Below, in pieces: positions 12,191 through 28,090 of a DNA stretch of 59,850 nt. Within the stretch, counting starts at the first letter, position 1; every line of letters begins with the position of its first letter. Made by a program: the position numbers and the translations under genes. A model generated the notes under the pieces. That model did not search any database and was not told where the DNA came from. It saw only the letters and a program-made list of their open reading frames with translations. The stretch comes from an uncultured Erysipelotrichaceae bacterium (GTDB lineage Bacteria; Bacillota_I; Bacilli_A; RF39; UBA660), in the NCBI GenBank assembly GCA_902776735.1, contig CACYRE010000004.1, positions 1 to 59,850 on the forward strand. The letters are read 5' to 3'.

Positions 12191-14185
12191 ATGGCTGAGT
12201 TAAAAGACGTTAAAGGTATTGGACCTAAAGCTCTTTCTTTGTTAAATAAAATTAATATTTATACGATAGATGATTTAGTTACTCATTATCCATTTAGATA
12301 TAATATTCTTCAAAGATGTGATTTAACTAAAGCAAATGATGGTGATAAAATAACAATAGATGGAAAAGTTGAAAGTATACCTATTTTAATGCGATTTAAA
12401 GCTGGACTTAATAAAATGAATTTTAGACTTGTTACTCAAAGTGGAGTAGTTGGTGTATCAATATTTAATAGAGCATTTATGAAGTCCCAATTAGTAGTGG
12501 GTACTGGAATAACAGTAGTTGGTAAATTTGATAAAACAAAAAATGTTATTACAGCAAGTGATATAAAACTAGGTATACTTACTAATCAAGCAAAGATTGA
12601 ACCAGTTTATCATTGCACAAATGGACTTACTAATAAAAATATGTCTACTTATATAAATATGGCATTACTCATGTATGGAAAAGAAATAATAGATTATATA
12701 CCAGAAGAATATAGAAAAAAGTATAATTTTGTCAATAAAAAAACTGCTTTAAATATTATTCATAATCCAAGTACTTTAGAAAAATTAAAAGAAGTAACTG
12801 TTAGATTAAAATATGAAGAGTTATTTGCTTTTATGTTTAAAATAAATTATTTAAAAAGAGAAAACAAAAATAAAAGTAATGGTTTAGTAAGAACGATAGA
12901 TAAAGAAAAGTTGGATAATTTCATCAAGAAACTTCCATTTAAGTTAACAAATGATCAAATGAAAGCAGTCGATGAAATAATTAGTGATTTATCATCACCA
13001 AATAGAATGAATAGGCTATTACAAGGAGATGTTGGTTCTGGTAAAACAATAGTTGCTTTTATTGGTATGGTTGCTAATTATTTAAGTGGTTATCAAAGTG
13101 CATTAATGGCACCAACTGAGATACTTGCTATACAACATTATAATAATTTGATGGAATTTCTAAAAGATACTGATATTAAGGTAGCATTACTTACAGGATC
13201 TACCTCTAAAAAAGATAAAATTGAAATATATAAGAAATTAAAAGATGGAACAATTGATATGGTAATTGGAACACATGCTTTAATTCAAGATGAAGTAGAA
13301 TATAATAATTTAGGTTTAGTAATTACAGATGAGCAACATAGATTTGGTGTACATCAAAGAGCTAACCTTCAGAATAAAGGAATAAGACCAGATGTTCTAT
13401 TCATGAGTGCTACTCCAATTCCTAGGACTTATGCTCTAACTATTTTTGGCGATATGGATGTTTCAACTATAAAAGAGCGACCTAAAGGACGAAAAAAAAT
13501 AGATACTTTTGTTAAGAAAAATAGTGAGATAAAAGATGTTCTACATATGATGTATGATGAACTAAAAGCCGGGCATCAAGTATATGTAATTGCCCCACTA
13601 ATAGAAGAAAATGAAAATAGTGATTTAACTAATGTAAACGAACTTAAAGATCAAATGAAATTAGCTTTTGGTAGTAAATATAAAATAGATATCGTTCATG
13701 GTAAAATGGCTAGTGGTGCTAAAGATATTATTATGGATCAATTTAAAAATAATGAAGTACAAATTTTAATTTCTACAACAGTCGTAGAAGTAGGAGTAGA
13801 TGTTCCTAATGCTACTATGATGGTTATATTTGATGCCGATAGATTTGGTTTATCAACATTGCATCAATTAAGAGGTAGAGTAGGACGTGGAAGCTCTAAA
13901 AGTAAATGTATACTTATAAGTGACAGTGATGCAGAAAGATTAAAAATAATGGAAAAAGAAGATGATGGTTTTGTTATTTCTGAAGAAGATTTTAAGTTAA
14001 GAGGATATGGGGATCTATTTGGAACAAAACAATCAGGTGATATGACATTTAATATTGCTAACATAAAGAATGATTATAAAATTCTTTTGCAGGCAAAAAA
14101 AGATTCTAATGAATATTTATTAAATAAAGAAACTGATAAAGATAATTTAAAGAAAGTTCTTATTAGTGAAATAACAGAAGGGTAG
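12191..14185 (+). CDS. recG: ATP-dependent DNA helicase RecG
   Basis: Motifs GDVGSGKT, DEQHRFG and QLRGRVGRG, with an N-terminal wedge/OB region. TATAAT at 12164-12169 makes ATG 12170 unlikely, so ATG 12191 was chosen. Confidence 0.95.
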   Translation: MAELKDVKGIGPKALSLLNKINIYTIDDLVTHYPFRYNILQRCDLTKANDGDKITIDGKVESIPILMRFKAGLNKMNFRLVTQSGVVGVSIFNRAFMKSQLVVGTGITVVGKFDKTKNVITASDIKLGILTNQAKIEPVYHCTNGLTNKNMSTYINMALLMYGKEIIDYIPEEYRKKYNFVNKKTALNIIHNPSTLEKLKEVTVRLKYEELFAFMFKINYLKRENKNKSNGLVRTIDKEKLDNFIKKLPFKLTNDQMKAVDEIISDLSSPNRMNRLLQGDVGSGKTIVAFIGMVANYLSGYQSALMAPTEILAIQHYNNLMEFLKDTDIKVALLTGSTSKKDKIEIYKKLKDGTIDMVIGTHALIQDEVEYNNLGLVITDEQHRFGVHQRANLQNKGIRPDVLFMSATPIPRTYALTIFGDMDVSTIKERPKGRKKIDTFVKKNSEIKDVLHMMYDELKAGHQVYVIAPLIEENENSDLTNVNELKDQMKLAFGSKYKIDIVHGKMASGAKDIIMDQFKNNEVQILISTTVVEVGVDVPNATMMVIFDADRFGLSTLHQLRGRVGRGSSKSKCILISDSDAERLKIMEKEDDGFVISEEDFKLRGYGDLFGTKQSGDMTFNIANIKNDYKILLQAKKDSNEYLLNKETDKDNLKKVLISEITEG

Positions 14186-14293
14186 TGTAAAATTTGACAT
14201 ATCATCATTTTTATGATAAAGTACAGAAGCTATTTTAAATTATACAATGAATTATTATAAAGATTGTTATTTTATTATATATGGAAGGATGAT

Positions 14294-14722
14294 ATGTCTA
14301 TGAAAGGACAAATTGATGATCAACAAAGGATTGCTTTCAGAAAGCAAAAAGCTATTTATAAAAGGTTAGGTTATAAAACTGAAAGCAAAGGATCTGAATA
14401 TTTTCAAGAATTAATAGAATACTTAAAGATAGATAATATAGATAATTCAGAAAAAAAATTATCAGAACGAGAAGCAAAAAAGAATATTTTATCAGAATGT
14501 ATAGACTTATATGCTTTTGATATTGAGTGTGGCAGAAAAAAATTTTATAGTAGTTTACTTGAATTTTTTAATAAATCACCAAAAAGTTCTTATGAGACAT
14601 TTGATGAATACTTTGAAAGGGCAGAGAAAATTATTGTTAAAGAGACAGTAAAATATTATAATAAATATGTTATAGATGGTGAAATTGATAAAAATAGCAG
14701 TAATAATTATAAAATAAGATAA
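14294..14722 (+). CDS. Hypothetical protein, possibly a Spo0A C-terminal-like DNA-binding fold
   Basis: RBS GGAAGGA precedes the start. LGYKTESKGSEYFQELIEYL weakly resembles the Spo0A_C recognition region. Confidence 0.35.
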   Translation: MSMKGQIDDQQRIAFRKQKAIYKRLGYKTESKGSEYFQELIEYLKIDNIDNSEKKLSEREAKKNILSECIDLYAFDIECGRKKFYSSLLEFFNKSPKSSYETFDEYFERAEKIIVKETVKYYNKYVIDGEIDKNSSNNYKIR

Positions 14723-14752
14723 AAAATGTTAGTGTCAACTAACATTTTTTTT
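14721..14752 (+). terminator. Rho-independent terminator
   Basis: AAAAAATGTTAG-TGTCAA-CTAACATTTTTTTT. Confidence 0.7.
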
Positions 14753-14773
14753 GGCAATTTTATTTAATTTAAA

Positions 14774-14802
14774 TTGACAATTTTTAAAATTTACTTTATG
14801 AT
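14774..14802 (+). promoter_or_regulatory. Sigma-A-type promoter of the att-site small RNA
   Basis: TTGACA (14774-14779), exactly 17 nt, then TATGAT (14797-14802). Confidence 0.5.
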
Positions 14803-14808
14803 TAGAAT

Positions 14809-14911
14809 GCGTGGTAAGATATATCACGCCGATTATCTCTCACGATTTAATGTGAGAGTATATTCAACCGAACCCCCTGAAGACCTAGTCGTGAGACTAG
14901 GTCACTTTTTT
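14809..14911 (+). ncRNA. Candidate about 100-nt small RNA whose 3' part carries the island attachment core
   Basis: Hairpins GCGTG...CACGC and CTCTCAC-GATTTAAT-GTGAGAG are followed by a single-stranded stretch CCGAACCCCCUGAAGA. A 9-bp terminator GACCTAGTC-GTGA-GACTAGGTC plus a T-run closes it. Confidence 0.4.
14872..14883 (+). repeat. att core copy 1 (ACCCCCTGAAGA), attL of island 1
   Basis: The identical 12-mer recurs at 20785-20796 and 33025-33036, all in direct orientation. Confidence 0.7.
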
Positions 14912-14940
14912 AGGAATTTAAGACTTAAAAATTTATAATT

Positions 14941-14962
14941 TAGGTTCTATTTTAGGTTCTAT
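14941..14962 (+). repeat. Island 1 left arm-type repeat (TAGGTTCTAT x2)
   Basis: TAGGTTCTATTTTAGGTTCTAT. The same tandem pair is present at 20659-20680. Confidence 0.7.
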
Positions 14963-14984
14963 TTTTTTGAAAAAATTAAAAAGA

Positions 14985-16088
14985 TTAGTACAAAGTATTC
15001 ATTATTTTGACTATATCTTCCATTTTATTTTTGAATAGATGAGAGTATGTGTTTAGGGTCTCATCTATTTTTGTATGTCCTAAATATTTTGCAACTATCA
15101 TGATATTTGCTCCATTATTAATAAGAAGTGAAGCACAAGAGTGTCTGAAGTCATGTAGTCTTATTGGTTTTACTCCAGATTTACTAGCTAGAAGATTTTT
15201 TCTAACTCTCATTCTTTCTTGAGTAATGGGTTTAACATCTCCAAATACATACCATTTATTATTAAATCCAAAATACTTTTTACAATTACTCTTTAGAATC
15301 TTTAAATCATCTGCAAGTGTTTGAGTAAGTGGTATAGTTCTAACACTTTTTTTACTTTTTGGAGTTGTTACATAAACTTTACCATCGACTGTGACTACAT
15401 TTTTCTTAACAGATAAAGTCATTTCTTCAAAATTAATATTATCCCATGTAAGACCTCTTAATTCTCCTAGTCTTAATCCACAAAAATATAAAACTTCAAA
15501 TGCTGATTTAAATAGAATTTCATCTTCGTATGATATGAATTGTTTAAATTCTTCTAGAGTATAGAATTCCATTTCTTTTGGTAAAGCATTGGGATCTACA
15601 AACTTTTCCATTTTATTATATATTTGTGTAAAATTGAAATCATGCCATCTAGTTCCATAATTAAGAATCTCTTTAAAGAATTTATGATATCCATTTTTAG
15701 TTTTAATAGCACAATCTCTTTTAGACATCCATCTTCTCCAAGACAAGTAATGATTAATATCAAAATCTTTAATTTTTACATTATGAATCGGCTCTAGAGA
15801 ATTAATTCTTTCTCGATATGATTTTAAAGTTGTTTCTTTTACTTTATCTGATTTATATTCATAGAATTCTTCATATAATTCAATAAAAGTCATATCGGTA
15901 ATATTAATTTCTTTTCTTCTCATTTTACGAAGTCTATTTGCTTCGGCAACTTGAGCTTCTTTTCTTGTAGCAAATTTTTTTGAATGATATTTTCTTTGTT
16001 TACCGTTTTCATCGAAATAATAAACTTGATAATACCATCTATATCCTTTAGATGTTGCATTCTCTTTAATACATTGGTTAACTGACAT
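14985..16088 (-). CDS. int: Tyrosine recombinase / phage-type integrase (island 1)
   Basis: Motifs FCGLRLGELRGL (Arg), HDFRHSCAS (HxxR), YLGH and LNTYSHL (Tyr). AGGAGG RBS. The protein is collinear with the integrase at 20844-21950. Confidence 0.9.
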   Translation of the reverse strand: MSVNQCIKENATSKGYRWYYQVYYFDENGKQRKYHSKKFATRKEAQVAEANRLRKMRRKEINITDMTFIELYEEFYEYKSDKVKETTLKSYRERINSLEPIHNVKIKDFDINHYLSWRRWMSKRDCAIKTKNGYHKFFKEILNYGTRWHDFNFTQIYNKMEKFVDPNALPKEMEFYTLEEFKQFISYEDEILFKSAFEVLYFCGLRLGELRGLTWDNINFEEMTLSVKKNVVTVDGKVYVTTPKSKKSVRTIPLTQTLADDLKILKSNCKKYFGFNNKWYVFGDVKPITQERMRVRKNLLASKSGVKPIRLHDFRHSCASLLINNGANIMIVAKYLGHTKIDETLNTYSHLFKNKMEDIVKIMNTLY

Positions 16089-16219
16089 TTATAATCCTCC
16101 TTTAATGGTTAAACCAATTTACTAGACCTTTTGCTAATTGAATAATACCATAAAAACAAAAAAAGCAAAACCATTATGTTTTGCCTTTGTCTAGTATAAA
16201 TTGATTTAATAGATTTATT

Positions 16220-16600
16220 TTATTTATATTTATGGGGGTTATCTTTTTTATCTATTATTTCCCATAATTCTTTGTTACTAAAGGTAATATATTTAGCAAT
16301 TAAAAACCCAATATAAGAAACGACTCCCCAAGCGATAATTATAATCAAATATGACAATTTAAAATTAAATAACAAACCTAAAATTGGAACTATTCCTAGT
16401 ATTCCAACTAATATTGGAATCGATAAGAATATTTCTATTACAATTGCTCTAAATCTAGTTCTAAAAGAATACTGCAATTTTTCTTCCCTAGATCTATCTT
16501 TTTTCAATTGCTCATATTCTTCTGATGTTAGAATACGTACTTTATTTTCTTCATTGTTTATTTTTGTTTCCTCTATATTTTTCTTTGTCTTTTTTGCCAT
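16220..16600 (-). CDS. Hypothetical membrane protein (charged N-terminus, about three TM helices)
   Basis: ORF plus RBS AAGGAAG; no recognisable motif. Confidence 0.5.
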   Translation of the reverse strand: MAKKTKKNIEETKINNEENKVRILTSEEYEQLKKDRSREEKLQYSFRTRFRAIVIEIFLSIPILVGILGIVPILGLLFNFKLSYLIIIIAWGVVSYIGFLIAKYITFSNKELWEIIDKKDNPHKYK

Positions 16601-16672
16601 AGCAACACTTCCTTGTTTTAATTATATAATACTTTTATTATCTATTATATATTTATTAAATATAGCAAATAG

Positions 16673-16903
16673 TTATAAATTGGCTAGCCTGTTTAAATAG
16701 TCTATATCGATTTTTAGCCTTTTAACGACCTCACACATTGGAATTAGTCCTTTTGGTAGAATATACCCATTTGCTTCTAATTCTTCCTGTATTTCCTTTT
16801 TTAGCCTATATACGTTGTTATTTCCAAGATTCGATAACTTTTTCAAGTCTTCAATAGTACACCATTGTTTAGATATTAATTCTAATGTTTCTTTAGCTGT
16901 CAT
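16673..16903 (-). CDS. Small island-backbone protein, putative HTH/excisionase-like
   Basis: The start was moved to MTAKETL behind a GGGGGTGAAG RBS. It is collinear with 23560-23796 (shared KQWC..DL.KL, YI.P, IDIDxLxR). Confidence 0.45.
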   Translation of the reverse strand: MTAKETLELISKQWCTIEDLKKLSNLGNNNVYRLKKEIQEELEANGYILPKGLIPMCEVVKRLKIDIDYLNRLANL

Positions 16904-17327
16904 TATCTTCACCCCCAAACTCTTTACAAAAATTATTCATAAATTCTATATCTTCTTGATTAGTTAATGGTTCTATCTCACATCTGTTTCCATTCCATAC
17001 CATAGTTCCATCTTCATCGTATCGAATATGTGGCATAGAAGTATTTAGTTCTTCTATGGAATCACTGATTTGAGTTATTAATATGTAATTATTAATTTTA
17101 TTGTTTTTATCTTTATATGAATTTACATATCCTTTTATAAAGATAAAATTATCTATAAAAAAAAGATCTTTATATTTTTCATAAAGATCTTTGTATGCTC
17201 TTAAACTGATAAAAGCTATTTTATTATTAAATATCTGGTTTTCTATACTTATTGCAATATGTTTTTCATTAATAATAATTGATAGAATTTTTCCAGATAA
17301 AAATATTTCATTTATATAATTATTCAT
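16893..17327 (-). CDS. Island-backbone protein, possibly an OB-fold ssDNA-binding-like protein
   Basis: AGGAGG RBS. It occupies the same backbone position as 23810-24226. The fold assignment is a guess based on its beta-rich N-terminal pattern. Confidence 0.35.
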   Translation of the reverse strand: MNNYINEIFLSGKILSIIINEKHIAISIENQIFNNKIAFISLRAYKDLYEKYKDLFFIDNFIFIKGYVNSYKDKNNKINNYILITQISDSIEELNTSMPHIRYDEDGTMVWNGNRCEIEPLTNQEDIEFMNNFCKEFGGEDNDS

Positions 17328-17444
17328 TTGAACCTCCTTAATTTATTAATAATTAATTATTTAATTTATTTATTTTATAAATTATTTATTAATTTATATT
17401 ATATGGTAGTTATATTTGACTAAATAACTAGTTATAATTGTCTA

Positions 17445-17726
17445 TTACTTTAGTCTTTCATGGCTATAGTTAACAGATATATCTCTTCTTGTTCCATAAT
17501 AATCATATCTTATAGATATATAATTTTGATCCTTTAATTCTTTGATTAATCTAGTTATTGTTCTTGCTGATAAATCTAATGTTCTAGCATATTTAGCATT
17601 ACTAGCAAAAGCAACTTTATAGTCATTATTACTAAAAGATATGATTACACCTAATAAAAGTTTAGCTGATGATGTTATACTTTCATCACTTAATACTTCC
17701 ATAGGTATTCTAATAAACTTTTCCAT
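17445..17726 (-). CDS. HTH_36-like (replication/regulatory helix-turn-helix) protein
   Basis: IPMEVLSDESITSSAKLLLGVIISFSN...ASNAKYARTLDLSARTITRLIKELKDQNYI matches the PF13730-type pattern. GGAAGGAGG RBS. Confidence 0.55.
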   Translation of the reverse strand: MEKFIRIPMEVLSDESITSSAKLLLGVIISFSNNDYKVAFASNAKYARTLDLSARTITRLIKELKDQNYISIRYDYYGTRRDISVNYSHERLK

Positions 17727-17888
17727 ATTTTTCCTCCTTCCTAAAAAATTGCACAAAAAAAGCAGTGATTTCTCACTGCGTATATTATTGATTAACTAGT
17801 ATCATATTTCATGTTTAAACCTCCTTATGAAAATTCGGGGATAGGGGTGTCCCCATATAGTGTTTGTTGTGTCATTGAAAAAAAGCAC

Positions 17889-17957
17889 TACAAATACGTT
17901 GCTTGTTTGTTTTCTCTATAAAAAAATTTTTTTTAATAAGCAAGCAACGTATTTGTA
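17889..17957. repeat. 17-bp perfect inverted repeat around a 35-nt A/T-only spacer (candidate origin or operator)
   Basis: TACAAATACGTTGCTTG (17889-17905) and CAAGCAACGTATTTGTA (17941-17957). Confidence 0.7.
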
Positions 17958-18523
17958 TACCCAAATGAAACATTTTGTCTATCCTAATACAATATGGGTG
18001 ATCCCAACCCCCAAACAAAAAAGGTAGAAGTTGTTCTTCTACCATTAATTATTCAGAGTATAAATATAAGGAAAATATCTCCATATCTATGACAATTGTT
18101 CCTTATTATAATCATTTTAACACTTGACAAATTTAATGCAATAGCAAAAAAGTATCAATTTTGTATCAAAAAAGTATCACTTTTCTAAACCGATGATTTT
18201 TAATGCCATTTAGAAAATAAAATGTATTGAAAATATATCTACTATAGATAATTATTCCTTATTATAACCATTATAAATCCTTAATATATTGAAAAGCAAG
18301 GTTGAATTTAGGGTTGAAAAAAGTGACGAAAAAGGTGGCGTTTTTAAGTGACTAAAAAGTTAATTTTGCCTTTATATTATAATGGTTTATGAAATTTGTT
18401 AAATGGTGCAATTAAGAGTAATATTCAGTAGCATTAGTAAAATCATCAATTTTTTTAATGTTACTTTTAGGTGATTTATATAATGTTATGTTATAATTTA
18501 TTATAAGAAATGGGTGGTATTAT

Positions 18524-19309
18524 ATGGCTTATTATAGTAACAGACAAATTAATAAGATAGTAAAAGATGTAATAGACAATTATTGCCCTCCTTCAACATA
18601 TAAAAATAAAATGCCAACTAAAGAAGAGTTTTCTATACAAAATATAGATATAGACAAAATTGAAAAAGAGTATAATTCTTTTGATAAAAAAAAGAATGCT
18701 ATTGAAACTTTCTTGGGTGTCGCTTGGTTTGCTCTTGGAGGAATTCCAGCTGGATATGTCTCTGTATATATTTGTGAAGCAATGAATCTTAGTACGGATT
18801 CATTTATTCCAATAATCATTTTTATGGCTTTATATTTTTTAGGGTTTGGAGTTATAGGATTAACAGATTATATAAAATATAATAAAAAGGAAGAATATGA
18901 GAATATAAAAAAATATAAGGAAGCAATGAGTCAATACTATTGGTGGCAAAATAGAAAGAAAAAGGATTTTTGGTATTCTTTGGATGGCCGAAAGTTTGAA
19001 ATTGAAATTGCAAATATTTTTAAGAAAATTGGATATAAGACTAAAATATGTAAGCAAGGTGGAGATGAGGGAGTAGATATAGAAATAGAAAAAAATGGTA
19101 ACAAGGAAATAATACAATGTAAGGCTCACAAGGCAAAAGTATCACCATCAGTTGCTAGAGATCTGCTTGGTACAATGTTAAATAAAAAAGTTAATCATGC
19201 TTATTTGGTAACATTAAATGGAGGTACAGCTGGAACTATTGATTTTTGCAAAAAGAACAACATTACTTTATGGGATATAGATGACATTATTAGATATAAT
19301 AAAATGTAA
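18524..19309 (+). CDS. Membrane-anchored Mrr-type (PD-D/ExK) restriction endonuclease-domain protein
   Basis: Two TM helices (FLGVAWFALGGIPAGYVSVYI and IPIIIFMALYFLGFGVIGL). The C-terminus FEIEIANIFKKIGYKTKICKQGGDEGVDIEIEKNGNKEIIQCKAHK fits the Mrr_cat pattern. Confidence 0.7.
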   Translation: MAYYSNRQINKIVKDVIDNYCPPSTYKNKMPTKEEFSIQNIDIDKIEKEYNSFDKKKNAIETFLGVAWFALGGIPAGYVSVYICEAMNLSTDSFIPIIIFMALYFLGFGVIGLTDYIKYNKKEEYENIKKYKEAMSQYYWWQNRKKKDFWYSLDGRKFEIEIANIFKKIGYKTKICKQGGDEGVDIEIEKNGNKEIIQCKAHKAKVSPSVARDLLGTMLNKKVNHAYLVTLNGGTAGTIDFCKKNNITLWDIDDIIRYNKM

Positions 19310-19342
19310 TCTATATTAATTATTTGTATGGAGGTGATAGTA

Positions 19343-20650
19343 ATGAGAAAATATGAGTTACAATTTGATGATGAAAGTATTAAAGATACTATCCACTCTA
19401 ATACTTTAAATAGAAACGATAAACTATTTAATTTAATAAGATTATTAAATAGTATGAATGAAAATCATATTATTTCTATTGATGGTAGCTGGGGAAGTGG
19501 GAAGACTTTTTTTATAAAGCAGCTTATGTATTTAAAAAGTAATCACAATGATTGTGCTTTCATAAAGCAAGATATCCATGATACTATTACTGAATTTGAT
19601 AAAAAATATATATTGGTTTATTATAATGCTTGGGAAAATGATGATCATAATGATCCATTAGAATCGATTATTTACAATTTGCTAAATATTTTACCAAAGT
19701 ATTCAGATACGTTTATTGATGGTACAGAACTATTTGATTTAATAAAAAAATCGTGGATGAATTTTATTGAAGTATCATCCTTAGGAATTGTTAAAACTGA
19801 TGATATCAAAGAAATGAAAACTTTTTCTGATTTGTCAGACTCAGTTAATACAATAGAGGAAAAGAAAAATGCTGTTTTAACATTATTAAGCCATATTACT
19901 AGGCATAAAAGAATTCTTTTAATAATTGATGAATTGGATAGATGTAAACCTGATTTTGCTGTTAAATTAATTGAGACTATAAAACATTTTTATGATAGTC
20001 CTAAAATGAGTACAATTTTTGTTACAAATAATAATCAATTATCTAAGACAATAAAAAAATTTTATGGTAATGAATTTGATGGATATAGTTATTTAAATAA
20101 AATATACGATGCAGTTATACCTTTACATTCTGATAACATTGAACAATACTCTAAAAAGTATTTAGATATTTATCATAGTACTAATCTTCCTGAAGATGTT
20201 TCTATTTTTTTATTTAAACACTATAATTTCTCATATCGTGAATGCAATAAATATATGTCCATGTATAGGTTGATTGAACCATATATCCAGTGGCATGGGA
20301 AGTTTCCCCAACATAATAGCAATATTGATATTTCGTGTATATTTGTTCCTATATCTATAGCGCTAAAGGTAAAAGATATCTATTTATATGAAAAGTTTAT
20401 ACAAAATGATGGTTCGGATATCTTAAAAGAACTCTTTGATGATGATAAATTAAAAAGTGAGAATAGTAATTTATATAGATGGTTTTGTGAAATCTTCAAA
20501 GTTAAAGAAGGAATGGAATTATCTAATAGAGTTGCTAATAGATATAAAGAAATATTTATTTCAGATAATACCTATGATTATGGTAAATATCCTTATATGG
20601 AAGCAATATCTATGTTAGGTAATCTTATTCATATTGAAGATGATAAATAA
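19343..20650 (+). CDS. KAP-family P-loop NTPase (no TM insertion)
   Basis: IDGSWGSGKTFFIKQL (Walker A), YNAWENDDHNDPLESII, and LLIIDELDRCKPDFAVKLIETIKHF (Walker B/KAP signature). It lies 33 nt downstream of the Mrr gene. GGAGGTGA RBS. Confidence 0.8.
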   Translation: MRKYELQFDDESIKDTIHSNTLNRNDKLFNLIRLLNSMNENHIISIDGSWGSGKTFFIKQLMYLKSNHNDCAFIKQDIHDTITEFDKKYILVYYNAWENDDHNDPLESIIYNLLNILPKYSDTFIDGTELFDLIKKSWMNFIEVSSLGIVKTDDIKEMKTFSDLSDSVNTIEEKKNAVLTLLSHITRHKRILLIIDELDRCKPDFAVKLIETIKHFYDSPKMSTIFVTNNNQLSKTIKKFYGNEFDGYSYLNKIYDAVIPLHSDNIEQYSKKYLDIYHSTNLPEDVSIFLFKHYNFSYRECNKYMSMYRLIEPYIQWHGKFPQHNSNIDISCIFVPISIALKVKDIYLYEKFIQNDGSDILKELFDDDKLKSENSNLYRWFCEIFKVKEGMELSNRVANRYKEIFISDNTYDYGKYPYMEAISMLGNLIHIEDDK

Positions 20651-20658
20651 TAATTTTT

Positions 20659-20680
20659 TAGGTTCTATTTAGGTTCTATA
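20659..20680 (+). repeat. Island 1 right arm-type repeat (TAGGTTCTAT x2)
   Basis: TAGGTTCTATTTAGGTTCTATA, located 104 nt before att core copy 2. Confidence 0.7.
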
Positions 20681-20784
20681 AATAGTAAAAAAAACTTAAA
20701 AAATAGTAAAAAATTATAATACAGAGGGTTAGCGATTATATTGATTTAACAAGTTTTAATAAGCAAAAGGTCTATTAAATCGCG

Positions 20785-20796
20785 ACCCCCTGAAGA
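20785..20796 (+). repeat. att core copy 2 (junction of island 1 and island 2)
   Basis: ACCCCCTGAAGA. The extended match AAATCG(CG)ACCCCCTGAAGAG is shared with copy 3. Confidence 0.7.
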
Positions 20797-20797
20797 G

Positions 20798-20820
20798 TTT
20801 ACATTAACTTTTACATTAAC
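20798..20820 (+). repeat. Island 2 left arm-type repeat (TTTACATTAAC x2)
   Basis: TTTACATTAACTTTTACATTAAC; the same sequence is at 32896-32918. Confidence 0.7.
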
Positions 20821-20843
20821 TACTAGGTAATGTAGAAGTTTTT

Positions 20844-21950
20844 TTAACTTAAATTATCCATAGTTTTTACTATCTCATCCATTTTATTTTTAAATAGGTG
20901 AGAATAGGTATTTAATGTTTCATCAATCTTAGCATGACCTAGATATTTTGCAACAATCATAATACTTGCACCATTATTTATTAAAACTGAAGCACATGAG
21001 TGTCTAAAGTCATGGATTCTTATTTGCTTAACACCAGATTCTTGAGTATATTTATTTTTCTGATGTCTTAATATATGAGCTGATAAAGGTTCTTTATCTC
21101 CAAATACAAACCATTTTTGATTAAAGCCGTATTGTTTCTTATCTCTTAAATATAATTCATGTAGATCTTTCATGACTCTTTCTGGAACTGGTAATGTTCT
21201 AACACTGGTTCTAGTTTTGGGAGTGGTAACATAACATTTGCCTCCTTCACCTTCTTGAACAACATTTTTAACCACCGAGAGCTCTCTATTAAAGAAATCT
21301 ATATTATCCCAGCTTAGACCTCTTAATTCACCTCTACGAAGGCCACAAAAGTATAATACTTCAAATAATGCTTTCCATTTAATATCATCTATTACTGATA
21401 AGAATTGTTTAAATTCTTCCCAAGTATAGAATTGCATTTCTTTTGGTGGCTTGTTTGGATTACTAAACTTTTCCATTTTGTTATAAATAGAAGTGAAGTT
21501 AAAATCATGCCATTTAGTTCCATAATTAAGAATAGTCTTCAATAATTTATAATATCCATTCTTAGTTTTATCAGCTAGATCTAATGTACCGATTCTCTTT
21601 CTCCAAGCAATATAGTGTTCTAACTTAATATCTTTAATCTTTAGTTCATAGAATTCACTTAATTCTTTAATATTAACTCTATATGTTCTTAAAGTAGATG
21701 TTTTAACTTTATCTTTCTTATACTCATAAAATTCTTCATAGAGTTGTTTAAATGTCATTCCAGTAACATTTATTTCTTTAGTTTCATATCCTACTAAGAA
21801 ATCTCTTTCTGCTTTTAAAGCTTCATTTCTAGTCATATAACTTCTAGACATATATGGTTTGGTTTTACCATCAACCTTTATCTTGTCATAAAAATACCAT
21901 CTTCTACCATCTTTGGTAGCTCTTTCTTTTGGTAACTGTAATACAGCCAT
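20844..21950 (-). CDS. int: Tyrosine recombinase / phage-type integrase (island 2)
   Basis: Motifs FCGLRRGELRGL, HDFRHSCAS, YLGH and LNTYSHL. Long runs are identical to the island 1 integrase (LYEEFYEYK, WHDFNFT, IYNKMEKF, IMIVAKYLGH, KIDETLNTYSHLFKNKM). Confidence 0.9.
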   Translation of the reverse strand: MAVLQLPKERATKDGRRWYFYDKIKVDGKTKPYMSRSYMTRNEALKAERDFLVGYETKEINVTGMTFKQLYEEFYEYKKDKVKTSTLRTYRVNIKELSEFYELKIKDIKLEHYIAWRKRIGTLDLADKTKNGYYKLLKTILNYGTKWHDFNFTSIYNKMEKFSNPNKPPKEMQFYTWEEFKQFLSVIDDIKWKALFEVLYFCGLRRGELRGLSWDNIDFFNRELSVVKNVVQEGEGGKCYVTTPKTRTSVRTLPVPERVMKDLHELYLRDKKQYGFNQKWFVFGDKEPLSAHILRHQKNKYTQESGVKQIRIHDFRHSCASVLINNGASIMIVAKYLGHAKIDETLNTYSHLFKNKMDEIVKTMDNLS

Positions 21951-22131
21951 TTTATTTATACCTCCTTATTTTGCTATATCGAGTTACCTCTTATACAACT
22001 CTAATATAGCACATTAATTAAAAAAAGTCAGGATTTCCTGACTAAATTAATTTTTCTTTCCTTAATTTTTTTTAATAAAAAAAGTAGGTAAGTACCTACT
22101 TAAATATCATAATACATAATATTACTAGCTA

Positions 22132-22452
22132 TTATGAAACCCATGCCCATAATCTTATTCCGTAAAACAAATCAAATTCTTCACCAGTTACTTTGACCAT
22201 TTTATTATCTTCTGAAGATTCTTTTGACATATAATATTTTACTTTTAGTTTATAGCCTAAACTAAAATATTCAAAGTTAATTTCTTCACCTGGTTCTAAA
22301 CAAGATATACAATATTTAGTTCTACCTAAAACTATTAGTGGTTTACTTCCATTATTAAATTTTAATCTTATACTTTCTTCACAAATAAAAATGGTAAATG
22401 TGCATACTAGTATCAATACAATTATACTTATTATTTTAAATGCTTTTTTCAT
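22132..22452 (-). CDS. Hypothetical small secreted or membrane-anchored protein
   Basis: N-terminal signal/TM sequence MKKAFKIISIIVLILVCTF; no recognisable motif. Confidence 0.45.
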   Translation of the reverse strand: MKKAFKIISIIVLILVCTFTIFICEESIRLKFNNGSKPLIVLGRTKYCISCLEPGEEINFEYFSLGYKLKVKYYMSKESSEDNKMVKVTGEEFDLFYGIRLWAWVS

Positions 22453-22488
22453 AAATTCACCTCACCTCAGTACCTCAAAACATTGCAA

Positions 22489-22734
22489 TTATTTGCCACA
22501 TGTTACATTTGTAGTGCAAGATGTTTCTAGGGGATAATTTGTAAATTTAAATTTTGTTATATTTCCGTTATCACAATGATATGTATCAACTAAAATACCA
22601 GACCTCTTCTTACACCACATTTCCATACCTATTATTGGATTATTATTAAATAATAAAGCTTGTAGTGTATCTATTAAAACAAATCCTACTAGAGTTGCCA
22701 AAACTATTAAAGTAATTTTTACACCTTTTTTCAT
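22489..22734 (-). CDS. Hypothetical small secreted, Cys-rich protein
   Basis: The start was moved to MKKGVKITLIVLATLVGF behind an AGGTGAT RBS. The mature part contains six Cys residues. Confidence 0.45.
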   Translation of the reverse strand: MKKGVKITLIVLATLVGFVLIDTLQALLFNNNPIIGMEMWCKKRSGILVDTYHCDNGNITKFKFTNYPLETSCTTNVTCGK

Positions 22735-22790
22735 ATAATCACCTATAATTATTATAACACAAAAAATAGCAATTTTATTATTGCTATTAA

Positions 22791-23405
22791 TTAAGGCATA
22801 GACCAAAACAAAACTTCATTGTATAAATAAAAATCTTTCCTAATTAGTTCAAAATCTTCCTTGTTAATATTATTGCCCCTTATTATTCTTTGTTTACTAG
22901 GATCTTTTTGCTTATAATAATATTTTACATAAAAGCCATAGCTGTATATAGTTTGTTCAAAATATTCATTGTCACCCGCGTGAATATCAACAGCATATCT
23001 CTTTTTTATTAGTGGCGTTGAATCCATGTCTGAATGCAAATATACTGATTCGATTGAAACATACATTACAGATAAAAATACAAATGCAAAAATAGACCAT
23101 AAAATAATTTTTAAAATTCTATTTTCTTTTTTAACTGTCTTATCAATCGTATATATTATGTTTTCTTCAAATTTTTCTTGATAATTTTTTTTATCAACTT
23201 TTTCGCCACTCATTAAATCATTTACAGTTACATCTAATTCTTTACTAATTATTGGAAACAATGAAATGTCAGGCATATTTTTTCCATTTTCCCAATTTGA
23301 TATTGCTCAATCTGATACTCCTAATTTTTCAGCAAGCTGTTGTTGTGTTAATTTTTTTTCTTTTCTTTTTTCGGCAATAAATTTTCCAATTTTAACTTGA
23401 TTCAT
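22791..23405 (-). pseudogene. XRE-family HTH plus TM protein interrupted by an in-frame TGA (23307-23309)
   Basis: MNQVKIGKFIAEKRKEKKLTQQQLAEKLGVSD*AISNWENGKNMPDISLFPIISKELDVTVNDLMSGE... is one continuous HTH_3 domain read across the stop. A TM helix lies downstream. It is a paralogue of 35279-35971. Confidence 0.7.
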
Positions 23406-23559
23406 ATTATTTATCTCCTTATCAATAATACAATACAACATTTTTAAAAAATATAACACGAAGCAATGCTTGAGTTTTGTTTCTATATACATTTTACCAC
23501 AAAACCCCATTTTTAATTTCTTAATACCTCATGATTTTATTTATATTAAAATGTTTTTT

Positions 23560-23796
23560 TTATTTATTAAGTTTGATTATTCTTTCGAGTCTATCTATAT
23601 CTATTTTTAAAATATCAACAACAGCTTGCATAGGTAAGTCATTTCCAGGAATATAATATCCTTCACTAATTAACTTATCTTTTATTTGCCTTTTAATATC
23701 TAATGCTTTATTTCTACCACAGTGTAGTAGTTTCATTAGGTCTGCTAAATTACACCATTGTTTTATTATTATCTTCATTGTTTCTTCTGCACTCAT
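23560..23796 (-). CDS. Small island-backbone protein, putative HTH/excisionase-like
   Basis: The start was moved to MSAEETMK behind a GGGAGG RBS. It is collinear with 16673-16903. Confidence 0.45.
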   Translation of the reverse strand: MSAEETMKIIIKQWCNLADLMKLLHCGRNKALDIKRQIKDKLISEGYYIPGNDLPMQAVVDILKIDIDRLERIIKLNK

Positions 23797-23809
23797 ATTA
23801 AAACCTCCC

Positions 23810-24226
23810 TTATTTAAAACTATCAATTATTTTTTGAATTTCTGCTTGTTCTTCTGGTGAAGCTTCTTCATTTGAAATTTTCTTTCCACCCCAATATCCA
23901 TCACCATAGAGTGGTGGTTCTTTCTTAACTTCAATTTCATTAATTTTTAAAATATGAATATAGTTTTGCCTATGTCCGTTTTTGTCAATGTAACCTTTTG
24001 GTATACCCTCAACATAAACATCTTTTCCAACCCTTAATTCTATTTTGTAAGAATATTCAACATACATTCTTGCACTAAAAAAGGATAAGTTATTCTTATC
24101 CTCGCCATTCTTATCTTTGTATAATTCTTTTTGACATATATCAAACCAAATATAGTCTTTATCAACTTTATCTCTAATACTAGTAATGTATCCATGATAT
24201 TTTATATAGTCTACTAAATCTTTCAT
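23810..24226 (-). CDS. Island-backbone protein, possibly an OB-fold-like protein
   Basis: AGGAGG RBS. It occupies the same backbone position as 16893-17327. Confidence 0.35.
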   Translation of the reverse strand: MKDLVDYIKYHGYITSIRDKVDKDYIWFDICQKELYKDKNGEDKNNLSFFSARMYVEYSYKIELRVGKDVYVEGIPKGYIDKNGHRQNYIHILKINEIEVKKEPPLYGDGYWGGKKISNEEASPEEQAEIQKIIDSFK

Positions 24227-24339
24227 TCCTAAACCTCCTTTACCTTTTACTAAGGCCTTTGTATAACTATTATATTTATATATTATCTTTATTTATTATG
24301 TAAGTATATTATATCTATATTGTAAGAAATATTATTCTA

Positions 24340-24609
24340 TTATGTTAGAAATTTATTTCTAATGTATATTTTTCTTCTAAAACTTTTAGGATTTTCAACT
24401 GTTATATATCCTTTATCAATTAATGCTCTAATTAAAGCTGATATAGTCCTAGTAGAACACTTTAATTTATTAGCATAATATTTATTAGATCCAAAAGCAT
24501 ATCCTTTTTGATTAGAATTAGAAAGTAGTAGAGTAAAAAATACAATAGCACTTTTACTCAAATTATCATCTAATAAATCATAATAAAGCTTTCCATGATT
24601 CTTGCTCAT
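24340..24609 (-). CDS. HTH_36-like helix-turn-helix protein
   Basis: LSKSAIVFFTLLLSNSN...GSNKYYANKLKCSTRTISALIRALIDKGYI. AGGAGG RBS. Confidence 0.55.
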   Translation of the reverse strand: MSKNHGKLYYDLLDDNLSKSAIVFFTLLLSNSNQKGYAFGSNKYYANKLKCSTRTISALIRALIDKGYITVENPKSFRRKIYIRNKFLT

Positions 24610-24638
24610 TCAAAAACCTCCTTTCTTAATTTTTAAAA

Positions 24639-24903
24639 TCCCACAAATGGGATAATACAGCCCACAAAACGGTAATTTTTAACTATAATTATTTAAGAGC
24701 ATAAGAGAATGATATCAACACAATAAAAAAAGCCTTATTGTATAAGACTTCCACGTGATATCAAACTTATTTTGCACTTGCAAAATTGTCCCACTCATGT
24801 GGGATATTTATTATATAAAACCCTTATATTATAAGTAATAACTGTGGGCTTACCTATGGGACATTATGTTTTCATATCTATAATCACCTCCTAATGAGTG
24901 GGA
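24639..24903. promoter_or_regulatory. Cluster of TCCCAC/GTGGGA half-sites and palindromes (candidate iterons or operators)
   Basis: TCCCACAAATGGGA (24639-24652), CCCAC (24661-24665), the perfect palindrome TCCCACTCATGTGGGA (24789-24804), GTGGGC..TGGGAC (about 24844-24862) and ATGAGTGGGA (24894-24903). Confidence 0.45.
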
Positions 24904-25054
24904 TAACAAAAAAAGAAGATGTATTCCATCTCCTTTGATAGATTTTTCCTACTATAGCAATTTTAACACCTATAAAATTCAAAGTGAAGTTCATTTACTA
25001 TGTGAATTTTAAGTTGTTTTAGTTGTTGTTTACTATGTTGTTTTTGTCAATTTT

Positions 25055-25198
25055 TCCATATTTTACTATATTTTATCACTATTAAATATTATTACAAGTG
25101 GTGAATTATATAGGTGTTTTGGGGGTGGAATTTCTTCATTTTTACCTTATAATTCCACTATTTTACAATATTTTATCACAACTAGAGATATTTACAAG
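25055..25198 (+). repeat. Two imperfect direct repeats of about 44 bp with a period of about 100 bp
   Basis: TCCATATTTTACTATATTTTATCAC...ATTACAAG (25055-25098) and TCCACTATTTTACAATATTTTATCAC...TTTACAAG (25154-25198). Confidence 0.6.
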
Positions 25199-25374
25199 AG
25201 GCCTTTGAACACCCCTCTAGGGGGTACTATTTTTGATTTAAGCCCTTATTTTATAAGGACATATTAAAAATATTAAATATATTTTTTTATAAAATAAAAA
25301 TGGATTTAATAGTCAAATAGTGATAAAAAATGTCGAAATTATGTTATAATCATATATAGAAAGGTAGTGTTGTT

Positions 25375-26910: not shown

Positions 26911-28090
26911 AAAAGAAGCAATTAGTGAATTAATTAATACTATTTATAATAATAATTCTGATCTAATACTTTCAGAAAGTGATATAAAAAGATTAAATAA
27001 CTTTTTCAAAGAAGTTGATCAATTCAGTAAACAATTTGATGCATTTTTAGAGGAAAATTCTGAAAAAACAAAAGGAATTTCTAAATTAAAAAGTGGCAAA
27101 TATGAAATGGAAAAACAGTATAATCAAAATAGAGCATTACAACCAGGTATTTTATCTGAATGTAATTATGTTGAAACTTTAGCTAAAATATTTAATTTGA
27201 ATAAATGTTTAGATTTTGATAGGACTCCAATGAATCAAGTTCCAATTGAATGTAGAAATTATCTTAACTCTGGATATCAGACATTTTCAGCAGCAAGATA
27301 TTTGTACTATAGTACAAAAAATCCCGATATATTTATATTTCAATATGGTAATCCTGCAAACGGTGATGCTGAAATAATCATCAATGGGAATAAGGTTAGA
27401 CTAGAATTCAAAGAAAGAAATGCCAAAGCAGGGGAATATGATATTACAGGATTGTATGATGATGAAGGTAAGCTGTTGATTTCTGATGATTTTAGAAAAA
27501 ACACTCCAGAATATATTCCTTTTATTGAGAAATTTAATAACGAAACAAATGTAATAGAACAAATTGGTCATAATTATAATGACTTTGATGATGAAACAAA
27601 AGTTTTGTCTGTTATGGAATATTTTGCAAGACATGACATTGATGCTATTGTTTCATCAACTTCAAATAATGAATTAGTTGTACTAACACCTGAATGTGTA
27701 AAAATAGAATTACCAGATGGTAGAAGGATAATTACGACAGAGAATAGTGAAATAAGAACATCAGGAAGAAATCACAGAAAAATATTTACCAAAAATTTAT
27801 TTATGAATGTCCTAGACCAAATGAATGCTGTAGAGATAGATAAAGATAAATATGAAGTGTCACTAGACAATGAATTAGTAGAAATAGTAAATGGTCGTGG
27901 CACAAGTACACCTAGTAGAATTAAATTCAATAAAGTGTTTTTTGTGGATATTAATGATGCTATCATTGAAAATGATAAAGTTGTATTTAATATTAACGAT
28001 GTTGAGCAATTAAAACCATCAATCTCTATGCATATAAAAATTAATGCAACAAAGGATGAATTAAAGGATTATTTTGAAAAGAAAGATTAG
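26903..28090 (+). CDS. Putative cognate restriction endonuclease (PD-ExK-like)
   Basis: ATG 26903 overlaps the methyltransferase stop by 8 nt. NGDAEIIINGNKVRLEFKERNAK fits D-x13-ExK. There is no other recognisable motif. Confidence 0.45.
   Translation: MNKKEAISELINTIYNNNSDLILSESDIKRLNNFFKEVDQFSKQFDAFLEENSEKTKGISKLKSGKYEMEKQYNQNRALQPGILSECNYVETLAKIFNLNKCLDFDRTPMNQVPIECRNYLNSGYQTFSAARYLYYSTKNPDIFIFQYGNPANGDAEIIINGNKVRLEFKERNAKAGEYDITGLYDDEGKLLISDDFRKNTPEYIPFIEKFNNETNVIEQIGHNYNDFDDETKVLSVMEYFARHDIDAIVSSTSNNELVVLTPECVKIELPDGRRIITTENSEIRTSGRNHRKIFTKNLFMNVLDQMNAVEIDKDKYEVSLDNELVEIVNGRGTSTPSRIKFNKVFFVDINDAIIENDKVVFNINDVEQLKPSISMHIKINATKDELKDYFEKKD

What the first reader, a model, noticed from the sequence alone, without database searches (positions are those of the whole stretch)
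18524..20650. Two-gene cargo of island 1: a membrane-tethered Mrr-type nuclease plus a TM-less KAP NTPase
Seen in sequence:
- The first protein has two clear TM helices followed by an Mrr_cat-like PD-(D/E)xK core (GGDEGVDIEI...IIQCKAHK).
- The second starts 33 nt downstream. It is an unmistakable KAP P-loop NTPase (GSWGSGKTFF, YNAWENDDHNDP, IIDELDRCKPDFAVKLIETIKHF).
- It shows no hydrophobic insertion between Walker A and Walker B.

Established knowledge: KAP NTPases typically carry TM helices inserted in the P-loop domain. To my knowledge, a TM-containing KAP NTPase has been reported as a single-gene defence (Tmn). Mrr-type domains are common defence effectors.

Inference: the membrane anchor appears to be supplied in trans by the nuclease partner. 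This suggests a sensor-NTPase plus membrane-nuclease-effector pair that may not correspond to a named system. It is the only cargo of a self-contained mobile island.
Basis: partly seen in the sequence, partly recalled or inferred. Interest (0 to 1): 0.7.

Follow-up and report, generated by a model that had tools for sequence, protein, structure and literature searches.

The report
Two unlinked defence genes on island
A small mobile island carries a membrane-anchored DNA-cutting enzyme gene next to an ATPase gene, but elsewhere almost every relative of each gene occurs without the other, so they look like two ordinary stand-alone candidate anti-phage genes rather than a new two-part system.

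Summary
ORF A (18524-19309) has a two-helix membrane hairpin followed by an intact Mrr_cat nuclease. ORF B (19343-20650), 33 nt downstream, is a KAP P-loop NTPase with no hydrophobic insertion. Together they are the cargo of a 5.9-kb integrase island (about 14884-20796). The island sits in the 3' end of a conserved small RNA gene downstream of recG.

- The pair recurs only in identical copies and in one related goat-gut MAG.
- Six other lineages of close relatives of ORF A (42-70% identity) have other neighbours.
- None of 80 metagenome loci with the same nuclease architecture has a KAP gene.
- Of 79 species-level KAP loci, one has the nuclease, and 30 have no close same-strand neighbour.

ORF B matches the PADLOC single-gene candidate PDC-S20 (E 2e-44). 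All 78 relatives in which both Walker motifs were found lack the insertion. TM-less KAPs (PifA) and single-gene KAP defences are already described, and Tmn belongs to the YobI family.

Best reading: two autonomous candidate defence genes, co-transcribed here. A lineage-specific partnership is not excluded (about 0.2).

The parts
18524..19309 (+). ORF A, 261 aa. It has a conserved cytoplasmic N-terminal motif (aa ~21-38), a two-helix membrane hairpin (aa ~62-115), a long juxtamembrane helix (122-152) and an Mrr_cat PD-(D/E)xK nuclease (152-257).
   Evidence: Pfam Mrr_cat E 2e-20. Family alignment with invariant E159, D181, D185, Q198 and K200. Hydropathy. AF2 model and Foldseek matches.
19343..20650 (+). 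ORF B, 435 aa (an alternative upstream ATG lies at 19328). It is a soluble KAP-family P-loop NTPase with Walker A G48-T55, Walker B D196-E197 and a C-terminal helical domain (aa ~280-435).
   Evidence: Pfam KAP_NTPase E 3e-33. PADLOC PDC-S20 E 2.1e-44. AF2 pLDDT 80.7. The best Foldseek matches are RdrA, BrxC and ORC/Cdc6.
19330..19334 (+). GGAGG ribosome-binding site for ORF B, 8 nt before ATG 19343. It lies in the 33-nt spacer, which has no terminator.
   Evidence: Read from the sequence. No + strand terminator-like site between 18043 and 20900.
14806..14917 (+). Small RNA gene whose 3' part is the island attachment site. Its promoter is TTGACA at 14775 and TATGAT at 14797. It has two hairpins, an invariant single-stranded C-rich stretch and a terminator. 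The att core is at 14870-14883.
   Evidence: The exact 26-mer occurs in 35 species-level genomes. 12 of 27 pairs show compensatory changes. No Rfam match.
14938..14964 (+). Left arm repeat of island 1 (TAGGTTCTAT twice), next to the integrase gene.
14985..16088 (-). Tyrosine integrase of island 1.
   Evidence: Pfam Phage_integrase E 2e-26 and Arm-DNA-bind_4.
16220..17756 (-). Island 1 backbone. It holds a 126-aa membrane protein, an 81-aa protein (phrog_989), a 144-aa protein and a 103-aa HTH_36 protein resembling the N-terminus of DnaD/Rep proteins.
17757..18523 (.). 767-nt non-coding stretch between the backbone and the cargo. It contains repeated motifs (18091-18120 / 18247-18276; AAAAAGTATCA twice) and a bidirectional terminator-like hairpin at 18023-18043. 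It is a possible origin or regulatory region.
   Evidence: The function is inferred only.
20657..20679 (+). Right arm repeat of island 1 (TAGGTTCTAT twice), starting 7 nt after the ORF B stop codon (20650).
   Evidence: unique exact match; 0 expected by chance.
20783..20796 (+). Right att core of island 1 (CGACCCCCTGAAGA). It is also the junction with island 2 (20797-33036), whose own right core lies at 33023-33036.
   Evidence: L001, L002 and L009 match the window up to 20796 and then diverge.

Best explanation
The locus is the cargo slot of a 5.9-kb tyrosine-integrase island (about 14884-20796). The island is inserted in the 3' end of a conserved small RNA gene downstream of recG, in tandem with a second, 12.2-kb island.

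The cargo consists of two genes that are evolutionarily independent. Each belongs to its own widespread, usually stand-alone family of defence-island genes.

ORF A is a membrane-anchored Mrr-type endonuclease. Its N-terminus and nuclease domain both face the cytoplasm (inferred from the charge distribution), and a sequence-hypervariable two-helix hairpin holds it at the inner face of the membrane. It lacks the Mrr_N DNA-reading domain. I infer that it cuts DNA near the membrane, such as entering phage or plasmid DNA, or cuts after an infection-linked trigger.

ORF B is a soluble KAP/STAND-like P-loop NTPase of the PADLOC candidate family PDC-S20. By analogy with experimentally tested single-gene KAP NTPases, I infer that it is a self-contained NTP-dependent switch and that its C-terminal helical domain does the sensing.

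In this island the two genes are probably co-transcribed. Their protection may add up or synergise, but neither requires the other.

Shown here: the domain content, the island structure and the lack of co-conservation. Inferred: a defence role for either gene, the topology and the mechanism.
For: Each family exists without the other.
- TM-Mrr homologues at 70, 65, 61, 58, 55 and 42% identity are followed by a D12 MTase plus AIPR, a 132-aa protein plus an AAA_15 ATPase, AIPR, a 121-aa unknown, a second Mrr_cat gene plus TerB_N and a BrxD-like gene, or a convergent gene.
- 80 metagenome loci carry the same N-motif/2-TM/Mrr architecture. 39 have at least 1.3 kb downstream and 36 have at least 1.3 kb upstream. 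None has a KAP gene, and there is no recurrent neighbour.
- The architecture is common: 467 clusters at 50% identity score E<=1e-30, and most align from profile position ~29 to ~258.
- On the KAP side there are more than 2,400 homologous clusters of about 430 aa.
- In 79 species-level genomes only L009 has the TM-Mrr gene upstream.
- The 48 tight same-strand neighbours fall into 54 Pfam families. The commonest is ApeA, in 3.
- 30 KAP loci have no same-strand neighbour within 100 nt on either side.
- P0006 (52% identity) sits alone among housekeeping genes.

Other support.
- ORF B matches the PADLOC single-gene candidate PDC-S20 at 150.8 bits.
- Single-gene KAP NTPases, including three from human gut metagenomes, protect E. 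faecalis. For the E. faecalis KAP NTPase, protection was lost in Walker B mutants (PMC13552941).
- TM-NERD-ZnR, the other membrane nuclease seen next to this KAP clade, is itself stand-alone. Only 1 of 60 loci has a KAP gene.
- In a strain 99.4% identical across recG up to 14911, the same site carries different defence-type genes.
Against: - The two genes are 33 nt apart on one strand with no terminator between them.
- They travel as one block in three contexts: the window, L001/L002 and L009.
- ORF B has no recognisable effector domain.
- Close KAP relatives often have a nuclease gene directly adjacent. Examples are ApeA in 3 genomes at gaps of 2-17 nt, TM-NERD-ZnR at gaps of 12 and 29 nt, and NERD-HRDC at a gap of 96 nt.
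- No defence phenotype has been shown for either family. The one PDC-S02 representative tested gave no protection in E. coli B, and no paper mentions PDC-S20.
Confidence: 0.6

Rival explanations
1. A genuine but lineage-restricted two-gene system. The soluble KAP NTPase senses infection and, by NTP-dependent assembly, docks on or releases the membrane-anchored Mrr nuclease. More broadly, this KAP clade would use whichever nuclease is encoded next to it (TM-Mrr, TM-NERD or ApeA) as an exchangeable effector.
For: - Operon-like layout: a 33-nt spacer with its own RBS and no terminator.
- The block is kept in L009 at 86% nucleotide identity although the island backbone there differs.
- The KAP protein has no effector domain.
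- Nuclease genes lie directly next to close KAP relatives in either gene order.
- There is precedent for cooperation between a P-loop NTPase and neighbouring defence systems, namely Tmn with Gabija and Septu.
Against: - Co-occurrence is 1 of 79 from the KAP side, 0 of 80 plus 6 of 8 close lineages without KAP from the Mrr side, and 1 of 60 for TM-NERD.
- Many KAP genes are isolated transcription units.
- The conserved cytoplasmic surfaces of ORF A are equally conserved in homologues that have no KAP neighbour.
- Gene order relative to the nuclease is not fixed.
- Defence islands are rich in nucleases regardless.
Confidence: 0.22
2. The genes do not defend the host. They serve the island itself, for example by interfering with a helper phage or rival element during the island's life cycle. 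Or they are an addiction module in which the NTPase restrains a toxic nuclease.
For: - They sit at the att-proximal end of a small integrase island with a replication-initiator-like gene and repeat-rich non-coding DNA.
- A second, related island sits in tandem.
Against: - Homologues of both genes occur in chromosomal contexts with no integrase or island backbone.
- The nuclease occurs widely without the NTPase, so it cannot need it as an antidote.
Confidence: 0.08

Closest known systems
PADLOC candidate PDC-S20 (single-gene 'phage defence candidate', a KAP-type NTPase of ~450 aa)
   Same: ORF B matches four PDC-S20 models. The best is E 2.1e-44, covering aa 22-376 against model positions 16-377 of 464. 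It has the same size and the same single-gene habit in many genomes.
   Different: PDC-S20 is only a guilt-by-embedding candidate, and no paper in the library mentions it. Here the gene is co-transcribed with a nuclease gene.
Experimentally tested single-gene KAP P-loop NTPase defences (EF_KAP and three gut-metagenome KAPs; PMC13552941)
   Same: A KAP NTPase domain followed by a C-terminal region of unknown function. The tested genes act as single genes, and the tested E. faecalis KAP NTPase needs its Walker B motif.
   Different: EF_KAP has TM helices and a 322-aa C-terminal region, whereas ORF B has none of the former and ~160 aa of the latter. The sequences of the tested proteins were not available to me, so relatedness beyond the domain is untested.
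PifA (F plasmid; a KAP family member without TM helices)
   Same: A KAP P-loop fold and no TM helices. The PADLOC PifA model hits ORF B at E 2.4e-10 over aa 45-261.
   Different: The PADLOC PifA model is 720 positions long and the hit is weak and covers only the NTPase core. ORF B has no counterpart of the rest of PifA.
[quoted passage not shown]
   Same: A P-loop NTPase that works as a single-gene defence and can synergise with neighbouring systems.
   Different: Tmn has two TM helices inside the P-loop domain and belongs to the YobI family. ORF B has neither feature, and no Tmn model was among its PADLOC hits.
RdrA of RADAR; BrxC of BREX
   Same: These are the closest solved folds to the ORF B model (Foldseek E 1e-5 to 3e-4).
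   Different: The TM-scores are only ~0.45 and sequence identity is 12-17%. There is no RdrB deaminase or BREX partner in the island.
Mrr / type IV restriction endonucleases, and Mrr-type effector domains (ZorD C-terminus, PADLOC PDC-S02)
   Same: ORF A has the Mrr_cat domain with an intact D...QxK signature. The Mrr parts of ZorD and PDC-S02 models match aa ~119-257.
   Different: ORF A has no Mrr_N DNA-binding domain. A short conserved motif and a two-helix membrane hairpin take its place. PDC-S02 models match only over the nuclease domain (model positions 206-316 of 346).

Membership tests
KAP family P-loop NTPase (Pfam PF07693) | Profile match above the curated threshold | tested here: met
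   115.8 bits against a cut-off of 20, over aa 35-273.
KAP family P-loop NTPase (Pfam PF07693) | Walker A GxxGxGK[ST] and Walker B hhhhDExDR | tested here: met
   G48-S-W-G-S-G-K54-T55 and I194-I-D196-E197-L-D199-R200. These are invariant in 37 homologues.
KAP family P-loop NTPase (Pfam PF07693) | Transmembrane helices associated with the NTPase domain (typical of the family, not universal) | tested here: not met
   No hydrophobic window in ORF B. AF2 shows 129-169 disordered. 0 of 78 relatives have such a segment. PifA also lacks them.
PADLOC PDC-S20 | Match to the PDC-S20 models over most of their length | tested here: met
   E 2.1e-44, 150.8 bits, model positions 16-377 of 464.
PADLOC PDC-S20 | Anti-phage phenotype | not testable with these tools
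   No paper mentions PDC-S20. An experiment is needed.
Tmn / YobI family | Two TM helices inserted within the P-loop domain | tested here: not met
   The family definition comes from PMC13001434.
Mrr-type (type IV) restriction endonuclease | Mrr_cat domain with the catalytic D...(Q/E)xK | tested here: met
   Pfam E 2e-20. D185, Q198 and K200 are invariant. The fold matches MspJI, AspBHI and AF1548.
Mrr-type (type IV) restriction endonuclease | N-terminal modified-DNA-reading (Mrr_N or other) domain | tested here: not met
   No Pfam or NCBIfam hit in aa 1-150. That region is a short motif, a TM hairpin and one long helix.
PADLOC PDC-S02 | Full-length match to the model | tested here: not met
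   Only model positions 206-316 of 346 (the nuclease domain) match, at 41 bits.
Dedicated two-gene defence system (conserved operon) | The two genes co-occur across diverged lineages | tested here: not met
   The pair occurs in identical copies and in L009 only. It is absent from 6 close TM-Mrr lineages, from 80 distant TM-Mrr loci and from 78 of 79 KAP loci.
Dedicated two-gene defence system (conserved operon) | Physical interaction or mutual dependence of the two products | not testable with these tools
   No multimer prediction was available. An experiment is needed.
QatABCD | QatA equivalog plus QatB, QatC and QatD neighbours | tested here: not met
   The QatA model scores 24.8 bits against a cut-off of 600. 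There are no QueC- or TatD-like genes in the island.
RADAR | RdrA ATPase with an adjacent RdrB adenosine deaminase | tested here: not met
   Only a distant fold resemblance to RdrA. There is no deaminase gene in 14884-20796.

The most novel reading that the evidence does not exclude
In this island lineage the soluble KAP NTPase and the membrane-anchored Mrr nuclease act as a facultative sensor-effector pair. More generally, this TM-less KAP clade would recruit whichever small nuclease is encoded beside it (TM-Mrr, TM-NERD-ZnR or ApeA) as an exchangeable effector. That would make it a loosely coupled modular system that simple co-occurrence statistics under-detect.
Probability: 0.15. Interest if true: 0.6.

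Novelty: new member of a known kind. Interest (0 to 1): 0.3.

Why it matters
If the pair were a real system, it would be a new way of coupling an NTPase sensor to a membrane-held nuclease. The evidence points the other way.

The result still has uses:
- It shows that 'TM-less KAP' is a clade-wide trait of a very common candidate defence gene (PDC-S20-like).
- It shows that the 'short motif, 2 TM helices, Mrr' protein is a widespread and untested stand-alone family. Its membrane hairpin is hypervariable: 28% identity against about 80% in the flanking parts between the two paired copies.
- It shows that, in these rumen and gut Bacilli, a conserved small RNA gene after recG is a hot spot where small integrase islands exchange defence cargo.

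Both gene families are cheap targets for phage-challenge tests.

Tried and rejected
- An Rfam scan of 12000-27000 at E<=0.1 gave nothing for the att-site RNA. It returned only two chance-level hits elsewhere.
- A scan of viral contigs with the TM-Mrr alignment found no confirmed relative. A tblastn search of ORF A against 50,697 phage records found no match. ORF B gave only five distant partial hits there.
- A literature search for PDC-S20 found no papers. A search for 'KAP NTPase' with Mrr found nothing relevant.
- The supplementary files of PMC13552941 are not held. I could not compare ORF B with the validated KAP proteins.
- I considered that island 2 ends near 25240, because a TTATTTTATAAGG flank resembles the empty-site flank. 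I rejected this when a third att core and the matching arm repeat turned up at 33023 and 32899.
- I considered a toxin-antitoxin reading, with the NTPase restraining the nuclease. I rejected it as the main reading because the nuclease family lives alone in nearly all loci.
- I tested whether 'KAP plus membrane nuclease' is a general rule, using TM-NERD-ZnR. Only 1 of 60 loci has a KAP gene.
- No multimer structure prediction and no DefenseFinder run were possible with the tools at hand.
Full report
**What is there**

The window has about 25% G+C. ORF A (18524-19309, +, 261 aa) matches Pfam Mrr_cat over aa 152-257 at E 2e-20. ORF B is listed from 19328, but a GGAGG at 19330-19334 places the likely start at ATG 19343. 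That is 33 nt after the stop of ORF A and gives 435 aa. ORF B matches Pfam KAP_NTPase at E 3e-33.

ORF A has two hydrophobic segments. The first, at about aa 62-86, has a peak Kyte-Doolittle value of 1.55. The second, at about aa 94-115, peaks at 2.43. A 7-residue loop without K or R joins them, and K/R-rich flanks lie on both sides. This predicts an N-in, C-in hairpin with the nuclease in the cytoplasm. The AF2 model (pLDDT 86.2) shows helices 43-86 and 95-116, a long helix 122-152 and a nuclease fold. That fold matches AF1548, MspJI, EcoT38I, Cdn1 and Can2. E159, D181, D185, Q198 and K200 are invariant in 23 homologues, so the active site looks intact.

ORF B has no hydrophobic 19-residue window. 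Its AF2 model has pLDDT 80.7, and the stretch 129-169 between the Walker motifs is disordered rather than a membrane helix. The nearest solved folds are RdrA of RADAR, BrxC and ORC/Cdc6, with TM-scores of about 0.45.

**The island**

The sequence GA(A/C)CCCCCTGAAGA occurs three times in the window, at 14870, 20783 and 33023. About 0.07 occurrences are expected by chance.

The first copy lies in the 3' part of a unit of roughly 110 nt at 14806-14917. This unit has its own promoter-like hexamers and a terminator. A metagenome contig (L094) is 99.4% identical to the window from recG up to 14911 and then diverges. Contigs L001 and L002 and the MAG locus L009 match the window from about 18450 up to 20796 and then diverge.

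Each island also has its own tandem decamer repeats at both ends. Island 1 has TAGGTTCTAT twice at 14938-14964 and at 20657-20679. Island 2 has ACATTAAC twice at 20801-20820 and at 32899-32918.

Island 1 therefore runs from about 14884 to 20796. It consists of:
- an integrase (14985-16088, minus strand);
- four small genes on the minus strand, one with an HTH_36 domain resembling the N-terminus of DnaD/Rep proteins;
- a 767-nt repeat-rich spacer;
- the two plus-strand genes at the att-proximal end.

Calling the pair the cargo of a self-contained island is correct. Island 2 (20797-33036) is inserted in the right att core of island 1.

**Are the two genes a system? The nuclease side**

The identical ORF A protein occurs on other contigs, always followed by the same KAP gene. 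One species-level genome, a goat-duodenum Bacilli MAG (L009/L089), has the pair with ORF A at 69% identity and ORF B at 91%.

Other close ORF A homologues have different neighbours:

| Homologue | Identity to ORF A | Neighbours |
|---|---|---|
| P0122 | 70% | D12 methyltransferase, then AIPR |
| P0124 | 65% | 132-aa protein and an AAA_15 ATPase |
| P0126 | 61% | NERD-Zn-ribbon upstream, AIPR downstream |
| P0128 | 58% | 121-aa unknown |
| P0130 | 55% | second Mrr_cat gene, TerB_N/TM2, BrxD-like, helicase |
| P0139 | 42% | a convergent gene |

A scan of JGI metagenomes gave 80 loci with relatives at about 30-60% identity. Of 79 with a scored gene, 69 have at least one predicted TM segment, and most align from the N-terminal motif to the end of the nuclease. 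None of the 80 loci contains a KAP gene, although 39 have at least 1.3 kb downstream and 36 have at least 1.3 kb upstream. No other neighbour recurs beyond near-duplicate contigs.

A profile search of 1.84 billion representative proteins found 467 clusters at E<=1e-30. Most are 225-300 aa and align from profile position ~29 to ~258. The architecture 'motif, two TM helices, Mrr' is therefore a widespread stand-alone family.

**Are the two genes a system? The NTPase side**

ORF B has more than 2,400 homologous clusters of about 430 aa. In 79 loci from one genome per species, only L009 has the TM-Mrr gene upstream. One further locus (L061) has an unrelated 311-aa Mrr-type gene downstream.

The 48 same-strand neighbours within 100 nt fall into 54 Pfam families. 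The commonest, ApeA, occurs three times, and Mrr_cat and NERD occur once each. Thirty loci have no same-strand neighbour within 100 nt on either side.

The closest relatives are just as varied:
- P0003 (64% identity) sits right after recG between unknown 684-aa and 310-aa genes, next to a type I R-M system.
- P0002 (64%) is followed by a TM-NERD-Zn-ribbon gene.
- P0004 (63%) is followed by a NERD-HRDC gene.
- L010 (50%) has a TM-NERD-Zn-ribbon gene upstream and ApeA downstream.
- P0006 (52%) stands alone among housekeeping genes.

Two membrane-tethered nucleases next to this KAP clade hinted at a rule, so I tested the second one. Of 60 species-level TM-NERD-Zn-ribbon loci, 43 have about 3 kb of sequence on each side. 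Only the L010 locus has a KAP gene.

**What is known**

ORF B matches the four PADLOC PDC-S20 models, a single-gene candidate. The best match is E 2.1e-44 over most of the model. It hits PifA and QatA only weakly. ORF A matches PDC-S02 and ZorD models only over the nuclease domain.

The literature corrects two premises. Tmn belongs to the YobI family, and PifA is a KAP member without TM helices (PMC13001434). Single-gene KAP NTPases from enterococci and from human gut metagenomes protect E. faecalis against phages. For the E. faecalis KAP NTPase, Walker B mutations abolished the protection (PMC13552941).

In 0 of 78 relatives of ORF B is there a hydrophobic segment between the Walker motifs. 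Lack of a TM insertion is the normal state of this clade, not a gap to be filled by a partner.

PDC-S02 was tested once and gave no protection in E. coli B. No paper mentions PDC-S20. The defence role of both families remains a candidate assignment.

**Mechanism**

The best-supported reading is two autonomous defence-type genes that happen to share a transcript in this island (confidence 0.6). No plus-strand terminator lies between 18043 and 20900.

ORF A would be a membrane-held endonuclease without a DNA-reading domain. Between the two paired copies (window and L009) the membrane hairpin is only 28% identical, against 78% and 83% for the flanking parts. At the DNA level it is 41-46% identical, against 73-99% elsewhere. 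The hairpin is therefore either a sequence-indifferent anchor or a fast-evolving or recombining segment.

ORF B would be an NTP-dependent switch with a C-terminal helical sensing domain.

A lineage-specific partnership remains possible (about 0.2). Four things favour it:
- the operon-like layout;
- retention of the block in L009 although the backbone there differs;
- the absence of an effector domain in ORF B;
- frequent adjacency of nucleases to close KAP relatives.

**Verdict**

Each gene is a new member of a known or candidate kind. Interest is modest.

Noticed in passing
window 14775-14917 (+); also L183-L217: A roughly 110-nt small RNA gene with its own promoter and terminator. It has two hairpins and an invariant single-stranded stretch, TATATTCAACCGAACCCCCTGAAGAC. 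It has no Rfam match. The exact 26-mer occurs in 35 species-level genomes of rumen and gut Bacilli MAGs. 12 of 27 predicted pairs show compensatory changes. It is the attachment site of the islands, and many assemblies break within 50 nt of it.
   Followed up: partly
window 20797-33036: A second, 12.2-kb integrase island lies in tandem, inserted in the right att core of island 1. It has its own arm repeats (ACATTAAC twice, at 20801 and 32899) and a right core at 33023. Its cargo includes three small membrane or unknown proteins (22132-23276, minus strand), an XRE-like HTH, a type II-like N6 methyltransferase (25375-26910), a T5orf172 protein (28099-28740) and four unknown proteins of 300-440 aa.
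   Followed up: partly
L094 2713-8637 and L095 (metagenome contigs of a strain 99.4% identical over window 12201-14911): In this strain the same site after the small RNA carries different genes: a 55%-identical TM-Mrr paralogue, a second Mrr_cat gene, a TerB_N/TM2 protein, a BrxD-like ATPase and a helicase. There is no integrase at the left end. This shows rapid turnover of defence-type cargo at this hot spot.
   Followed up: partly
window 18687-18867 versus L009 (aa 61-118 of ORF A): The membrane-hairpin segment of ORF A is essentially unrelated between the two paired copies. It is 28% identical at the protein level and 41-46% at the DNA level, while the flanks are 73-99% identical. It is also the unconserved part of the whole family. 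The cause, whether recombination, relaxed constraint or diversifying selection, was not resolved.
   Followed up: partly
window 17757-18523: A repeat-rich non-coding stretch between the island backbone and the cargo. It has 30-nt direct repeats at 18091 and 18247, AAAAAGTATCA twice near 18150-18180, and a bidirectional terminator-like hairpin at 18023-18043. Island 2 has an analogous repeat pair at 25059 and 25159. These may be island origins or regulatory sites.
   Followed up: no
L009 2954-4154 (JAFRAK010000007.1): In the goat MAG the pair lies between left and right att copies, but without an integrase. The left 1.2 kb has different arm-type repeats (CAGATACCA twice) and a 293-nt match to window 1848-2134. 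It looks like a decayed or recombined composite island.
   Followed up: no
L010, L011, L022 (KAP followed by a 465-aa gene at gaps of 2-17 nt): Three species-level genomes have an ApeA (ApeA_NTD1 + HEPN_Apea) gene immediately downstream of a 50%-identical KAP gene. This is the most frequent tight neighbour of the clade.
   Followed up: partly
L218-L277: A TM-NERD-Top1-type Zn-ribbon protein of about 240 aa is common in gut and rumen Bacilli (60 species-level loci) and is almost always without a KAP or TM-Mrr neighbour. It is another small membrane-tethered nuclease family that looks stand-alone.
   Followed up: partly
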